Shown piece after piece: positions 4,011 through 15,421 of a stretch of DNA of 19,819 nucleotides. This DNA is from a virus, in UHGV virus genome UHGV-0254309; one strand, 5' to 3'. The position numbers and the translations under genes are program-made. Positions within the stretch are counted from its first letter, which is position 1. Each line of letters opens with the position of its first letter. A model generated the notes under the pieces. The model saw only the letters and a program-made list of their open reading frames with translations, searched no databases and was not told where the DNA came from.

Positions 4011-4215
4011 TCATTTTCACTTTCTTAAATCTAACGACAGACGGCTAACATTTAAGTATTGTGAAATATTATCAAATGTAATCATCATTGATTTACAAAA
4101 GATACATTTTGCCCCGAAAGGATTCCTGTCAGAAACATCAAAAGATGATGTTCTATACTGAGAACCATGGCAACACGGGCATCTAAAGTGAATATGGTTT
4201 GTAATATTTTCTACC

Positions 4216-4431
4216 TCAAAGTGCCACAACATGAACAGCCGCGGGGCCTTTAGGTCCGTTCTCAATACCAAATTCGACTTCCTGATTCTCAGTTAACGTT
4301 TTGAAATCGTTGCTCTGAATAGCTGAGAAATGGACAAACACATCTTTGCTACCATCTTTCGGCGTGATGAAACCAAAACCTTTTTCAGGGTTAAACCATT
4401 TCACTAAACCAGTCATTTTGTTAGACATCAT
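4216..4431 (-). CDS. cspI: Cold-shock protein, CspA family (CspI-like)
   Basis: 70-71 aa, [38 protein letters not shown]..., with RNP1/RNP2 motifs of the cold-shock domain. Two tandem ATGs at the start. Confidence 0.85.
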
Positions 4432-4791
4432 TATTACCTTTTGAAGAAGTTAGCCCTTGGGCAGAATGGTCCGAAAAAAAATATCAGAGAGAAAAACCAA
4501 CAAGGAAATCTCAAGAGGTACAAATAATAAAATTATAACAATGACTGCTTCAGATAATTTTGTAACAAACCAGAACACCATTAACGCATGATTAACCAAC
4601 CATAGCAAGGATTACTTTTGTAAAGAAAAACACACGAATGAAACAATAGCTTTATTTATTAATAAAACGTGTCATTCTGTCTAATGACCTTTTATCTTAC
4701 CCTTAAGATTTCAAGGATTTTGACTCATGGAAGAGTCCTTTTTATTTAAATTTCACATTCAGCGCTAAAAATAATCCGATTTAATATTAAT

Positions 4792-5819
<1,028 letters not shown>

Positions 5820-5932
5820 GGATATTTATCAGGATTTATCGGCTTCAAATCCCCGGATATGTTAAATCTTACCTCACCAGTGATGGGCACTGGCGGGAGG
5901 AGGATGTCAATCTGATAAACACAGAGGTGATT

Positions 5933-6193
5933 ATGGATTACACAAATCTACCAAAACAAACTTTTGCTGATTTAATCGCACTCAGGCAAGCAGTCGTAGC
6001 TCTAATCAACTTGTTGCCGGAGAAGGAAAAGGAATTAGTTAAAGCGCTTCTTAACAGAACTGCCGCCGATTTTTCATCATATCCACTGACAGATGACCTT
6101 GCGGACCTTCCTGAATTAATTGCAGCGTCCGCCATTAAGCTTACTGAAGAGATTTACCCTCCTCAAAAATCTTCACAAAATTCCTGCGAGTAA
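5933..6193 (+). CDS. Hypothetical small protein (about 86 aa), opposite strand to the lysis cassette
   Basis: ATG at 5933 with GAGGTGA Shine-Dalgarno 5 nt upstream; stop followed about 22 nt later by a hairpin plus T-run. 3' end overlaps the 3' end of the convergent minus-strand ORF by about 50 nt. Confidence 0.5.
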   Translation: MDYTNLPKQTFADLIALRQAVVALINLLPEKEKELVKALLNRTAADFSSYPLTDDLADLPELIAASAIKLTEEIYPPQKSSQNSCE

Positions 6194-6692
6194 CTTCAAT
6201 GCAATAATCGTAAAACGCCGCAAACTGCTCATCGCGGCGTTTTTTTTCATCTTCAGAAGGAATCAGCACCAACAATTTTTTATTCAGATCAGCGACGCTG
6301 CTCTCCAGTTTTTCAATGGGCGATTCAATATCATCTTTTTCTGACCGCAATGCCGTCGGTGGCGTCTTCAGAGAACCAGTAATTCTTCCCGGTAGCTTTC
6401 CTTTGTAGGTTATCCACACATTCTGCGCCTCTAAAATTACCGGGCGCTTTTCCGGCGACAGCTCATCCCCTTCACATAACCCGGCAGCAACATCCAGGAA
6501 GAACTGTCTGATGCTCCTTCTCGCTGCTGCCTCATAAAACTCCAGCGCGGCACCTTCAACACGGTCCAGCGAGATGTCCAGGTCAAAAATTTCACCGTCA
6601 AAGCGTTTTTTGTCCCGTAAGGCTACAGTTACCGCCACTTTATTCTCAAAATTGCGGACTCCTTTCACAACCAGTTCATAGTCTTGTGTCAT
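6141..6692 (-). CDS. Hypothetical phage protein between holin and endolysin (ydfR-like position)
   Basis: Listed ORF starts at TTG 6713; ATG at 6692 lies 4 nt after the holin stop with a purine-rich stretch upstream, giving about 183 aa. No recognisable catalytic motif. Confidence 0.55.
   Translation of the reverse strand: MTQDYELVVKGVRNFENKVAVTVALRDKKRFDGEIFDLDISLDRVEGAALEFYEAAARRSIRQFFLDVAAGLCEGDELSPEKRPVILEAQNVWITYKGKLPGRITGSLKTPPTALRSEKDDIESPIEKLESSVADLNKKLLVLIPSEDEKKRRDEQFAAFYDYCIEVTRRNFVKIFEEGKSLQ
6215..6248 (+). terminator. Rho-independent terminator after the 86 aa plus-strand gene
   Basis: Stem ACGCCGC / GCGGCGT with 12-nt loop followed by TTTTTTTT. It lies inside the C-terminal coding region of the convergent ORF 6141-6692. 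Confidence 0.45.
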
Positions 6693-6696
6693 TGGA

Positions 6697-6912
6697 TTAC
6701 TCTCTTCTCGCAACCTTACGCCTGTCTTCTTTAATCTTGAAATAAAGGTTTGTCAGATACGTCAGCAGGCCAAAAACCAGACTACCCAGCACACCGATTG
6801 CAGCCCACTGTGACGGAGTTACTTTATCGAGTAACTGCAATGCCCAGAAACCAGCATTACCAGCCGATGTGCCATAGGCGATACCTGTTGTTAACTTATC
6901 CATTGATTTCAT
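6697..6912 (-). CDS. essQ: Holin (EssQ/EssD-like)
   Basis: 71 aa, [28 protein letters not shown]...[17 protein letters not shown], with two hydrophobic segments and a basic C-terminus. GAGGA Shine-Dalgarno; first gene of the lysis cassette. Confidence 0.8.
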
Positions 6913-7385: not shown

Positions 7386-7664
7386 TATTGTGGTGCTTTT
7401 TGTGGGAGTCATCCACTTACGCACTTTGTTTTGCTATGCCAGCAGTTAGCTTCTGCTGTAAAACTATTCATGCAGCAAACCTGCACTTCACCACAATGGT
7501 TAGCATACTTTTCCTGATTAAGTTATTGCCAAATATGCTGGCCATTGTTTCATGTATTGGACCTCCTTACTATTTATTAAAGAGATCCAATATTCACCAC
7601 TCTGTCTGTATCTCCACTCAGGCATCAGCCTTCTTCGTTATCGTATACAGACAAACTATGAATT

Positions 7665-7880
7665 TTAATCAGTAATTATGACATTTGCTGCTGCAGGACC
7701 TTTAGCACCACTCTCTACAGAGAAGGTAACCTTTTGACCTTCAAATAAGGTTCGAAAATTATCATTCTGAATCGCAGAAAAATGCACAAACACATCTTTA
7801 CTACCATCAACAGGAGAAATAAAGCCAAAACCTTTATCAGCGTTAAACCATTTTACTAAACCAGTCATTTTATTTGACAT
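7665..7880 (-). CDS. cspB: Cold-shock protein, CspA family (CspB-like)
   Basis: 71 aa, [45 protein letters not shown]..., full cold-shock domain; long upstream leader typical of cold-shock genes. Confidence 0.85.
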
Positions 7881-8180
7881 TCTACATTCCTTAACTTGAG
7901 CCTTTCGGCATAAATGGCTTGTATAACAGAAACGACTTCGTACTTAATTGGAGAGACTCAAAGAAGGAATAAGTGAATAACACCTGAAATGAGAACTGCT
8001 TTAGTAAACTACTTCGTATATCGTCTGTTCTTCAAACCGACGCAATCATTAACGCATAGTTGAACATATGAAGCAATGTTTATTTTAGACATCCAGCCAT
8101 CTTCAACCCCATCAAAAAACTATAGCTTTCTTCAGGAAGGTGTGTATAGTGCGCCCAGTTATCAGTATTAAGGAATTTTT

Positions 8181-14276: not shown

Positions 14277-15421
14277 TTGCGCCCCCTTACCTCTGAAGGG
14301 TTCAGCGACAAATTTATGAGGCAGGCCAGCGCCGAAGCATCATTAATATAGTCATACAAGCTAACAGCCAGCGGAGATTCGGCTTTTGCCAACATAGGAT
14401 AAAGCTGCTGCAGCCAGACCTGATGAATTGATGAAATGTAGGAATAGAGAACGCTGGCGTTATGTGCAACGTCGCTCGGTACAGGGGGTTTTGAAAGCTG
14501 TTTCTCCATCTGGTTAAAGGCATTGATATATGCCTCTTTGAACTGGGCAGCACGTTTACCCGTGAAACCCATAGCAAGAAACGCAAAGCCGTCGCGGGTT
14601 ATTTGATAGCAAGGTAGTTTGCGGCCTGATGCGTCGATGTACTCACTGAGCTGAAAATTCAGCTCAGTAAATTCGGCAGAGCATTCAAGAGACGCAATTT
14701 TTTGAATGACATTTTTGTGTTGTTTGCCGAAATAACTAGCAACAGCCAGAGAAGAAGTAACAACTTTGTCTGCAATAATGCAAAGTTCAGGTTGTACTAA
14801 GGCAGGGATCGTAGCCATGATGGCAGCCTCCGTATGCAATGGATAACTTCCACCACCGGAAACGCCAATTTCGCTGGTGGTGAACTGAGCAGGGTTGGCG
14901 TAACCGGCGCATACGGAAACCGGCGCACCTTTCGGTGCCCCCACCCAGCCCACCATAATTTGGGTATAGCTGAGTTGTAGCAACAAAAAAGACGCTAACG
15001 CGCCAATTGTCGCCGTATGCAATTCCAGGACGCCAATCCCGGCACCCGCTTTATAAGGTGCCTGAACAGTGTAACGTCCCGGAATGGCAGAATCAATGTG
15101 CTGGTGGTCCTTCACACTCAACAAAATCACGCCTGAATTTCCACAAAGGACTAAAGCACTCATGCGGGTAGTCTTTGCGAAGATAGATAACGCGCTGTGT
15201 TTCTGGTTCCCAACGAATAACATGAACATAAAGCCCTCTTCCGTCACGAAACCAGCGGTTAAGTTCCTGCACAACTCGCCCCCCACAGTCAGGTAAAGTT
15301 CTCTGTGGTTACTTACAGCCAGGTGATTTGGTAATCTGCATTCATGCCGTAACAACAGGTGTTCAGAGACGCTGACCACCAGCTGTTGCGACAAACGGTT
15401 ATTTGCCGTTAAACTGTTCAT
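14273..15421 (-). CDS. Rha-family phage regulatory protein with a roughly 200 aa N-terminal extension of unknown function
   Basis: Residues about 215-300 (VTSSLAVASYFGKQHKNVIQKI...YQITRDGFAFLAMGFTGKRAAQFKEAYINAF) match the Rha domain. Long ORF starts at an ATG overlapping the upstream stop; an internal ATG at about 14818 with GGAGG upstream would give a 181 aa Rha-only product. Confidence 0.6.
   Translation of the reverse strand: MNSLTANNRLSQQLVVSVSEHLLLRHECRLPNHLAVSNHRELYLTVGGELCRNLTAGFVTEEGFMFMLFVGNQKHSALSIFAKTTRMSALVLCGNSGVILLSVKDHQHIDSAIPGRYTVQAPYKAGAGIGVLELHTATIGALASFLLLQLSYTQIMVGWVGAPKGAPVSVCAGYANPAQFTTSEIGVSGGGSYPLHTEAAIMATIPALVQPELCIIADKVVTSSLAVASYFGKQHKNVIQKIASLECSAEFTELNFQLSEYIDASGRKLPCYQITRDGFAFLAMGFTGKRAAQFKEAYINAFNQMEKQLSKPPVPSDVAHNASVLYSYISSIHQVWLQQLYPMLAKAESPLAVSLYDYINDASALACLINLSLNPSEVRGRK

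What the first reader, a model, noticed from the sequence alone, without database searches (positions are those of the whole stretch)
5820..6250. Opposite-strand small gene with its own Shine-Dalgarno and terminator inserted inside the lysis cassette
Between the holin-proximal ORF and the endolysin, an 86 aa plus-strand ORF (5933-6193) has a near-ideal GAGGTGA Shine-Dalgarno and a hairpin/T8 terminator 22 nt after its stop. It is convergent with, and overlaps, the 3' end of the minus-strand ORF; the terminator lies within that ORF. An independently expressed gene antisense to late lysis transcription is unusual and could be a lysogeny-expressed moron or could modulate lysis timing through transcriptional interference.
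Basis: seen in the sequence. Interest (0 to 1): 0.5.

Follow-up and report, generated by a model that had tools for sequence, protein, structure and literature searches.

The report
Antisense accessory gene in prophage lysis cassette
A small, real but uncharacterised gene with its own ribosome site and terminator sits backwards between the YdfR gene and the endolysin gene of an E. coli lambdoid prophage, in a spot where related phages carry other small backwards genes, so it is an ordinary phage "moron" in a previously undescribed variable slot.

Summary
An 86-codon plus-strand ORF (5933-6193) has a GAGGTGA Shine-Dalgarno. A hairpin with a T8 tail follows its stop. The ORF overlaps the 3' end of the minus-strand gene, a long YdfR/DUF1327 form, by 53 nt.

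It is a real gene. RefSeq calls it WP_001306174.1 (hypothetical) and PHROGs calls it family 2572 (unknown function). Relatives at 41-49% identity keep the reading frame, show a coding pattern by codon position and have only in-frame indels. K-12 Qin lacks it. About 5% of complete E. coli genomes and several cultured phages carry it.

Three comparative results favour an autonomous transcription unit (a moron):
- A 72-nt leader beside the endolysin start holds TTTATC-17 nt-TATGTT. The TATGTT is kept in 208 of 213 cassettes with a backwards gene and in 5 of 32 without one.
- At least seven unrelated small backwards genes follow this same leader in related phages.
- The hairpin arises from a 15-nt in-frame insertion in ydfR that the cargo-free 296-aa form lacks.

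The product is a predicted acidic three-helix cytoplasmic protein with no informative sequence or fold match. Expression in lysogens and any effect on lysis timing remain untested. Interest is moderate.

The parts
5824..5896 (+). Shared leader of about 72 nt beside the endolysin start codon. It begins with the 17-mer ATTTATCAGGATTTATC (5824-5840).
   Evidence: The 17-mer occurs exactly once in the window, against 0.01 expected. It was present in 146 of the 153 loci fetched up to that point. In an IMG/VR scan it lay directly beside the SAR-endolysin start in nearly all hits. The leader is shared by at least 7 unrelated backwards cargo genes.
5835..5863 (+). Candidate sigma-70-type promoter pointing away from the endolysin: -35-like TTTATC (5835-5840), a 17-nt spacer, and -10-like TATGTT (5858-5863). 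The transcript start is inferred near 5870.
   Evidence: It was not flagged by the consensus scan because it matches only 7 of 12 positions. The hexamers and the 17-nt spacing are invariant while the spacer sequence varies across cargo types and across relatives with 41-49% identical coding sequence. TATGTT is present in 208 of 213 cargo-bearing loci and in 5 of 32 cargo-less loci. This is an inference, with no transcript data.
5876..5892 (+). Small stem-loop in the leader: CCAGTG-atggg-CACTGG.
   Evidence: The local fold is -17.2 kcal/mol, z = -2.9. The type-2 leader has a different hairpin at the same place. In two other leader types the fold is not significant. This is suggestive only.
5924..5930 (+). 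Shine-Dalgarno sequence GAGGTGA.
   Evidence: Read directly from the sequence. Relatives have GAGGTGA or GAGGCGA. Distant relatives have TAAGGAC.
5933..6193 (+). ORF86: an 86-aa acidic protein (pI 4.6, net charge -5.5, 9.5 kDa) predicted to form three helices. It is WP_001306174.1 and PHROG 2572.
   Evidence: Annotation and family. Relatives at 41-49% identity have in-frame indels. Nucleotide identity by codon position is 0.69-0.75 at position 2, 0.53-0.68 at position 1 and 0.49-0.56 at position 3. 126 of 140 copies are intact. AlphaFold2 gives pLDDT 72.8 and 75.3 with helices 8-26, 30-48 and 56-74. Physical properties.
6212..6247 (.). Hairpin plus T8. It acts as an intrinsic terminator for ORF86 on the plus strand and is potentially bidirectional. 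It lies inside the coding sequence of the YdfR tail (residues KKRRDEQFAAF).
   Evidence: Folds. It sits 18-23 nt after the stop in three divergent lineages. One pair shows a compensatory change (G-C to A-U), with the encoded residues changing from RR..AA to RHH..GVA. It is created by a 15-nt in-frame insertion that the cargo-free 296-aa YdfR form lacks.
6141..6692 (-). Long YdfR-family gene (183 aa): a DUF1327 domain plus a C-terminal tail of about 70 aa. The last 18 codons overlap ORF86.
   Evidence: Pfam DUF1327, E = 1e-42. PHROG 2091 matches full length. PGAP marks the gene as a pseudogene 'missing C-terminus' even though the ORF is open and conserved.
5830..6486 (.). Segment that replaces 92 bp of K-12 Qin. 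The ORF86 module itself is smaller, roughly 5824-6250.
   Evidence: blastn of the window against K-12. The 211-aa YdfR form consists of another tail plus only the last 35 residues of this one, which places the module's right edge just past the hairpin.
5286..5819 (-). Flanking endolysin RrrQ (phage lysozyme). Its start codon is 4 nt from the 17-mer.
6697..6912 (-). Flanking P21-type holin EssQ.

Best explanation
ORF86 is a genuine protein-coding accessory gene of the moron type. It occupies a variable 'backwards-gene' slot between the YdfR-family gene and the SAR-endolysin gene of P21-type lysis cassettes in E. coli lambdoid phages.

The proposed working is as follows.
- Transcription starts at a weak sigma-70-like promoter in a conserved leader that abuts the endolysin start (TTTATC at 5835-5840, 17 nt, TATGTT at 5858-5863). 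It runs away from the endolysin. This step is inferred.
- The mRNA carries a strong Shine-Dalgarno and the 86-codon ORF. This step is shown.
- Transcription stops at a hairpin/T8 terminator that has been built into the reading frame of the convergent ydfR gene. The hairpin is shown in silico and its link to the backwards gene is shown by comparison.
- Q-modified late transcription from the opposite direction is expected to read through this hairpin. This follows from established knowledge of lambdoid Q antitermination.
- Because the unit is antisense to the late operon and has its own signals, it is most likely expressed when late genes are silent, in the lysogen or early in infection, as lambda bor is. 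This step is inferred.
- The product is a small acidic three-helix cytoplasmic protein. It most likely acts by binding another protein. Its target is unknown.
For: 1. The gene is real.
- RefSeq and PHROG both record it.
- A full HMMER scan of 1.84 billion proteins found two true distant relatives.
- Those relatives show a coding pattern by codon position and only in-frame indels.
- 126 of 140 copies are intact.

2. It is an addition.
- It is absent from K-12 Qin.
- It is present in 294 of 5426 complete E. coli genomes.
- Its G+C is lower than that of the flanks.

3. It is mobile across phage backbones.
- Qin-like and phage 2H10.
- Stx-like phages with NanS-p upstream.
- Cassettes with PsiE and PmrD upstream.
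- In contig L092 it sits between Rz and the small terminase subunit, the position of lambda bor.

4. The terminator is tied to the backwards gene.
- The hairpin is stable.
- It is kept 18-23 nt after the stop in three lineages, with one compensatory pair.
- It is made by a 15-nt in-frame insertion that the cargo-free 296-aa YdfR lacks.

5. The promoter has comparative support.
- The hexamers and the 17-nt spacing are conserved while the spacer varies.
- TATGTT is in 208 of 213 cargo-bearing cassettes and 5 of 32 cargo-less ones.
- At least 7 unrelated cargo ORFs, each with its own Shine-Dalgarno, follow the same leader in the same orientation.

6. Cultured, plaque-forming phages carry it, so it is compatible with lytic growth.
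Against: - No transcript, protein or phenotype data exist in the searched literature.
- The promoter matches the consensus at only 7 of 12 positions and failed the consensus scan.
- The 17-mer is also present in cargo-less cassettes, so part of the leader may serve the endolysin or recombination instead.
- The loci compared are related by descent, so the 208/213 against 5/32 contrast overstates independent support.
- Among close alleles the substitution pattern is near neutral: 9 synonymous, 14 non-synonymous and 1 stop, against 30% synonymous expected.
- Seven copies have ATG changed to ACG and two have a stop at codon 19.
- The commonest other cargo (type 2) has no recognisable terminator.
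- In the L147/L095 lineage the hairpin has no U tract on the plus strand.
Confidence: 0.62

Rival explanations
1. ORF86 and the C-terminal tail of the long YdfR form are a functional pair. The backwards gene would encode a binding partner or antagonist of the late-expressed YdfR tail, made when late genes are off. This would resemble an immunity or antitoxin arrangement. YdfR itself may act on RNase E.
For: - In every ORF86-family locus the gene is convergent with a late-strand ORF and overlaps it by 53-59 nt. The ends of those late-strand ORFs are alignable..RRNFVKIFEEGKSLQ..VRNFQKLKSTQQG and ..TKFLQELKLSQQE.
- In L092 this partner is a free-standing 73-aa ORF that abuts the Rz gene (the two ORFs share base 1779), with a coding pattern against the window tail of 0.51/0.58/0.37 by codon position.
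- The N-terminal 72 residues of K-12 YdfR bind the RNase E catalytic domain, and YdfR co-purifies with RNA (PMC13232886).
Against: - Physical overlap alone explains why the two travel together.
- The 211-aa YdfR form shows that only the last 35 residues (hairpin to stop) travel with ORF86.
- Other cargo types sit beside short (114-aa) or truncated (72-75-aa) YdfR forms that have no such tail.
- There are no PADLOC or toxin-antitoxin hits.
Confidence: 0.13
2. The unit works mainly in cis at the RNA level. Convergent transcription and the two-way hairpin between ydfR and the endolysin gene would act as a safety lock. They would block or destabilise leaky late-strand transcripts before they reach the lethal endolysin and spanin genes. 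The protein would be secondary.
For: - The hairpin is more stable on the late strand (-18.7 kcal/mol) and is followed there by UUUUACGAUUAUU.
- It lies upstream of the endolysin gene.
- Its stem is kept by a compensatory change at the cost of amino-acid changes in the tail.
- Lambda OOP RNA, which overlaps the 3' end of cII by about 55 nt, is a precedent for convergent-overlap control. This is my own knowledge and was not tested here.
Against: - ORF86 is conserved as a protein at 41-49% identity.
- The slot holds unrelated protein-coding cargos, each with a good Shine-Dalgarno.
- Most E. coli cassettes of this type do without any such unit.
- The U tracts on both strands vary between lineages.
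Confidence: 0.1
3. ORF86 is expressed during the lytic cycle, early and before Q acts, as a counter-defence or host-takeover factor rather than as a lysogen-expressed gene.
For: - Small acidic helical phage proteins are often inhibitors of host proteins (my own knowledge).
- The gene is carried by plaque-forming phages.
- Very divergent alleles (41% identity) occupy the same site in otherwise similar phages, as expected for genes caught in arms races.
Against: - The only structural hint, AcrIIC4 at E = 2.2, is noise.
- There is no timing information.
- The location inside the late region, in antisense orientation, is the classic place for lysogen-expressed morons such as bor.
Confidence: 0.12
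4. The ORF is a chance open frame and the region is non-coding spacer or a decayed remnant of a longer YdfR gene.
For: - Close alleles show nearly neutral substitution.
- A few copies have lost the start codon or gained a stop.
- PGAP gives it no name.
Against: - Distant relatives keep the frame with a coding pattern by codon position.
- The minus strand of 5820-6140 has no similarity to the C-terminal domain of the 296-aa YdfR form.
- The chance of such an ORF is 1-3%.
- The predicted fold is coherent.
Confidence: 0.03

Closest known systems
Phage morons as defined for HK97 and HK022 (reviewed in PMC3594210, 'The moron comes of age')
   Same: It is extra DNA relative to close relatives. Its G+C differs from that of its neighbours. 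It has its own terminator and a promoter-like element. It has spread between different phage backbones.
   Different: Expression from the repressed prophage is not shown. The terminator is embedded in the coding sequence of a convergent late gene, and the two genes overlap by 53 nt. The gene shares its leader with at least six other unrelated cargo genes at the same site.
Lambda bor (lysogen-expressed gene next to the lysis genes, transcribed against the late operon)
   Same: It is a small gene in or beside the lysis cassette, in antisense orientation to late transcription. In contig L092 the ORF86 relative sits exactly in the bor position, between Rz and the terminase genes.
   Different: Bor is an outer-membrane lipoprotein with a signal peptide. 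ORF86 has no Bor match in Pfam and no hydrophobic leader, and it is acidic and probably cytoplasmic. There is no sequence or fold relationship.
Lambda OOP RNA and cII (convergent transcripts overlapping at their 3' ends)
   Same: A short transcript that ends at a hairpin and overlaps the 3' end of a convergent gene by about 55 nt.
   Different: OOP is a non-coding RNA. Here the transcript encodes a conserved protein. No regulatory effect has been shown.
Accessory-gene hotspots of temperate phages, for example the P2 and P4 defence hotspots (my own knowledge, not tested here)
   Same: A fixed position between conserved genes where unrelated small cargo genes replace one another.
   Different: None of the seven cargo families matches a known defence protein in PADLOC or any Pfam family. 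The slot lies inside the lysis cassette and the cargo is antisense to it.

Membership tests
Moron (independent accessory transcription unit in a phage genome; PMC3594210) | It is an obvious addition compared with closely related phages. | tested here: met
   In K-12 Qin, ydfR abuts rrrQ. Window 5830-6486 replaces 92 bp of K-12. Only 294 of 5426 genomes carry it, while 5149 have the cassette.
Moron (independent accessory transcription unit in a phage genome; PMC3594210) | Base composition differs from that of the surrounding genes. | tested here: met
   G+C is 0.405-0.42 across 5800-6300. It is 0.50-0.55 in rrrQ and 0.47-0.53 in the 5' part of ydfR. The difference is modest.
Moron (independent accessory transcription unit in a phage genome; PMC3594210) | It has its own promoter. 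| tested here: inconclusive
   The region has no consensus-grade site. The conserved TTTATC-17 nt-TATGTT tracks the presence of cargo (208/213 against 5/32) and is shared by seven cargo types. There is no transcript-start data.
Moron (independent accessory transcription unit in a phage genome; PMC3594210) | It has its own terminator. | tested here: met
   A hairpin (-14.6 kcal/mol) with T8 lies 18-22 nt after the stop. It is conserved in three lineages. It is absent from the cargo-free 296-aa YdfR form. This is in silico evidence only.
Moron (independent accessory transcription unit in a phage genome; PMC3594210) | It is expressed from the repressed prophage. | not testable with these tools
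   No expression data are available here, and literature searches found none.
Bor/Iss family lipoproteins | A signal peptide with a lipobox, and similarity to the Bor family. | tested here: not met
   Pfam gave only a sub-threshold ABATE hit (E = 0.078, 14 bits against a cut-off of 24.4) and no Bor-family hit. The N-terminus MDYTNLPKQ is polar, and the most hydrophobic 19-residue stretch contains D13 and R18.
Cis-antisense regulatory RNA (OOP-like) | The transcript is non-coding. | tested here: not met
   The coding pattern by codon position and the in-frame indels across 41-49% identical relatives show it encodes a protein.
Known anti-phage defence proteins or toxin-antitoxin components (PADLOC) | A profile match to a described defence protein. 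| tested here: not met
   There were no PADLOC hits for ORF86, its distant relatives, the YdfR forms or cargo2.
PHROG 2572 (phage protein family of unknown function) | A full-length profile match. | tested here: met
   E = 1.2e-53 over residues 1-86 of 86. The distant relatives P0140 and P0141 also match.
YdfR/DUF1327 family (the convergent partner gene) | A Pfam PF07041 domain. | tested here: met
   E = 1e-42, profile positions 1-92 of 93. Full-length match to PHROG 2091.

The most novel reading that the evidence does not exclude
The site between ydfR and the endolysin gene would be a dedicated, promoter-equipped exchange slot for a polymorphic set of small proteins expressed outside the late phase. 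ORF86 and at least six unrelated families would belong to it. These proteins would act on a common process, for example superinfection exclusion, anti-phage defence or counter-defence, or control of the YdfR/RNase E axis and hence of lysis-gene mRNA. ORF86 would then be one allele of a hidden arms-race locus inside the lysis cassette of E. coli lambdoid phages, including Stx-type phages.
Probability: 0.15. Interest if true: 0.65.

Novelty: new member of a known kind. Interest (0 to 1): 0.36.

Why it matters
If ORF86 and its slot-mates are expressed from prophages, they form an uncharacterised set of accessory genes. They are carried by about 5% or more of E. coli genomes, including Stx-type phages, and lie in a place not usually searched for lysogenic-conversion or defence genes.

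The locus also shows how a terminator can be written into a protein-coding gene by a 15-nt in-frame insertion.

It also exposes an annotation problem. PGAP marks the intact long YdfR forms as pseudogenes because of the overlap.

On its own, however, ORF86 is an ordinary small moron of unknown function.

Tried and rejected
1. Decayed remnant of a longer YdfR gene. I tested whether 5820-6140 is what is left of the C-terminal domain of the 296-aa YdfR form, which would make ORF86 a chance antisense frame. tblastn found no similarity beyond residue 171, so this was rejected.

2. dN/dS among close alleles. The result was uninformative: 9 synonymous, 14 non-synonymous and 1 stop, close to the neutral expectation. 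Only the distant relatives settled the coding question.

3. Function by homology. All of the following were uninformative:
- Pfam gave only ABATE at E = 0.078, below threshold.
- The 'DUF1823' label in the PhiR12 phage records was not reproduced.
- NCBIfam and PADLOC gave nothing.

4. Repeat-protein hits P0142 and P0144 in the HMMER scan. These were judged to be composition or repeat noise, and P0143 to be a garbled frame.

5. My own earlier idea that the 17-mer is specific to cargo-bearing cassettes. The IMG/VR scan overturned this. The 17-mer sits beside the endolysin start with or without cargo. Only the -10-like hexamer tracks cargo.

6. Homology between ORF86 and other cargo families. hhalign found none.

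7. Literature searches for the accessions, the phage names and DUF1327 found nothing on this gene.

8. A species-wide scan of 185,579 representative genomes found only one carrier, an E. coli.

Full report
**What is there**

The window is a Qin-like lambdoid prophage of E. coli. On the minus strand lie the holin essQ (6697-6912), a DUF1327/YdfR gene (6141-6692, or to 6713 from an upstream TTG), the lysozyme rrrQ (5286-5819) and the spanin gene rzpQ (4792-5289).

Between ydfR and rrrQ, on the plus strand, is an 86-codon ORF (5933-6193).
- GAGGTGA lies 5 nt (from GAGG) before its ATG.
- After the stop there is a hairpin (arms 6212-6221 and 6234-6243) and T8 at 6240-6247.
- The hairpin folds at -14.6 kcal/mol on the plus strand and -18.7 kcal/mol on the minus strand. 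Both are beyond nearly all shuffles.
- The ORF overlaps the last 18 codons of ydfR, and the hairpin lies inside ydfR.

An ORF of this length arises by chance in only 1-3% of simulated sequences of the same composition.

**Is it a gene?**

RefSeq annotates it as hypothetical protein WP_001306174.1, and it is PHROG 2572 of unknown function.

Close alleles (90-100% identical) are found almost only in E. coli and its phages, plus a deleted remnant in Salmonella. Among these close alleles the substitution pattern is nearly neutral, and a few copies have lost the start codon or gained a stop. They do not settle the matter.

A full HMMER scan of 1.84 billion representative proteins found two true distant relatives of 89 and 93 aa.
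- They are 41-49% identical to ORF86.
- Their indels are all in frame.
- Nucleotide identity is highest at codon position 2 (0.69-0.75) and lowest at position 3 (0.49-0.56).

That is the signature of a protein under selection.

The minus strand of 5820-6140 has no trace of the C-terminal domain of the 296-aa YdfR form. ORF86 is therefore not an accidental frame opposite a decayed gene.

AlphaFold2 predicts three helices (pLDDT 73-75). The protein is acidic (pI 4.6) and has no convincing membrane segment.

**Is it an insertion?**

Yes. In K-12 Qin, ydfR (103 aa) runs straight into rrrQ, and window 5830-6486 replaces 92 bp of K-12. Of 5426 complete E. coli genomes, 5149 have this type of cassette and 294 carry the ORF86 segment. 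G+C falls to 0.41-0.42 in the segment, against 0.50-0.55 in the flanks.

The module occurs in several contexts:
- Qin-like prophages and phage 2H10;
- Stx-type phages;
- cassettes with other neighbours;
- one metagenomic contig (L092), where a distant relative sits between Rz and the small terminase gene, the position of lambda bor.

**The terminator belongs to the backwards gene**

The hairpin is kept 18-23 nt after the stop in three divergent lineages. In one lineage a G-C pair has become A-U, with matching amino-acid changes in the overlapping ydfR frame (RR..AA to RHH..GVA).

I compared the tail with the 296-aa YdfR form, which fills the whole holin-endolysin gap and has no backwards gene. 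The ORF86-linked tail has a 15-nt in-frame insertion (AAAACGCCGCGATGA, residues KRRDE) and one base change. Together these create the complementary arms. The 296-aa form cannot form the hairpin.

The 211-aa YdfR form carries a different tail followed by only the last 35 residues of this one. The unit that moves with ORF86 therefore ends just past the hairpin.

**The promoter is inferred**

The consensus scan finds nothing upstream. The sequence next to the endolysin start is nevertheless strikingly conserved, even in L092, where the coding sequences are only 48% identical.

In all but four chance hits the 17-mer abuts the SAR-endolysin start. Reading away from the endolysin, the conserved leader of about 72 nt is followed by at least seven unrelated ORFs, each with its own Shine-Dalgarno and all in the same orientation:
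- the ORF86 family;
- five other small families of 90-104 aa (PHROGs 2411, 1853, 18136, 25324 and 10490);
- a 210-aa protein.

None of these has a Pfam match, and profile comparison shows no relation to ORF86.

Within the leader, TTTATC and TATGTT are separated by 17 nt of variable sequence. TATGTT is present in 208 of 213 loci with a backwards gene and in 5 of 32 without one. The loci are not independent, so this is supportive rather than proof.

The 17-mer itself is present with or without cargo, and its role is unexplained. It could serve endolysin translation, act as a recombination junction, or act as an upstream promoter element. Its reverse complement contains CGATAAAT, which matches 8 of 10 positions of the H-NS high-affinity motif TCGATAAATT (PMC2094087). 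I treat that only as a lead.

**How it most likely works**

The anatomy is that of a moron as defined in PMC3594210: added DNA with its own promoter and terminator, allowing expression while the prophage is repressed. I commit to that reading with confidence of about 0.6.

Transcription would start near 5870, the 86-aa protein would be made, and transcription would stop at 6247. Q-modified late transcription from the other side would read through. The protein most likely works by binding another protein.

What it does is unknown. Sequence and fold searches gave nothing.

**Rivals**

- A functional pair with the YdfR tail. This is attractive because the convergent overlap of 53-59 nt is conserved and because K-12 YdfR binds the RNase E catalytic domain (PMC13232886). 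It is weakened because other cargos sit beside tail-less YdfR forms.
- A purely cis-acting lock on leaky endolysin transcription. This is weakened by the conservation of the protein.
- Early lytic expression as a counter-defence factor. This is untested.
- A chance ORF. This is essentially excluded.

**Verdict**

ORF86 is a new, uncharacterised member of a known kind, the phage moron.

The more interesting by-product is the variable backwards-gene slot and the terminator written into a coding sequence. I found no description of either in the searched literature.

Noticed in passing
window 5824-5896, and loci L154-L273: The interval between ydfR and the SAR-endolysin gene is a variable slot. 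At least seven unrelated backwards ORFs follow the same leader of about 72 nt in different phages (PHROGs 2572, 2411, 1853, 18136, 25324 and 10490, plus a 210-aa family). 32-36 of the loci examined are cargo-less.
   Followed up: partly
L151 1140-2050 (E. coli O43 RM10042, Stx-like prophage): The same leader and the first four codons of ORF86 are followed by a different 210-aa gene (1278-1910). This gene has an AGGAG Shine-Dalgarno and a short stem followed by T7 after its stop; that stem-T7 region folds no better than shuffled sequence (z = -0.26). The ORF86-type hairpin comes after that. The gene is unannotated by PGAP but conserved in E. coli and Salmonella at 53-65% identity.
   Followed up: partly
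window 6141-6692 (minus strand): PGAP annotates the long YdfR forms as pseudogenes 'missing C-terminus' in every genome checked. The 183-aa ORF is open, is conserved as PHROG 2091 and shows a coding pattern. YdfR comes in length classes of 103-116, 169-183, 211, 243, 268 and 296 aa, with exchangeable C-terminal modules.
   Followed up: partly
window 6282-6302: A 21-bp in-frame deletion in the ydfR tail, giving the 176-aa form, is seen in several relatives. In the unique sequences examined that carry ATG changed to ACG at the ORF86 start, this deletion is also present.
   Followed up: no
window 5824-5840: The invariant 17-mer with two ATTTATC repeats 10 nt apart abuts the endolysin start, with or without cargo. 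Its reverse complement resembles the H-NS high-affinity motif TCGATAAATT. Its function is unexplained.
   Followed up: partly
window 14873-15061 (minus strand): Rfam matches to C4 antisense RNA (80.7 bits) and the IsrK Hfq-binding sRNA (61.2 bits) lie side by side. This resembles the P1/P7-type antirepressor control region seen in other prophages.
   Followed up: no
window 4170-4586 and 7602-8041 (minus strand): Two cspA-type thermoregulator 5' leaders lie upstream of the cold-shock genes (cspI-like at 4216-4431 and cspB-like at 7665-7880) that flank the lysis cassette.
   Followed up: no
window 4842-5138 (minus strand): An embedded Rz1-type lipoprotein ORF (rzoQ-like, with the lipobox-like sequence LTSC) lies inside rzpQ in another frame, as annotated in K-12.
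   Followed up: no
protein P0018 (Salmonella enterica): A Salmonella remnant keeps the leader and the first 25 codons of ORF86, joined directly to the sequence after the hairpin. This is a deletion derivative of the module in another genus.
   Followed up: no
K-12 ydfR (literature, PMC13232886): A 2026 paper reports that YdfR residues 1-72 bind the catalytic half of RNase E and that tagged YdfR co-purifies with RNA. This may be relevant to why the gene sits in a lysis cassette.
   Followed up: partly
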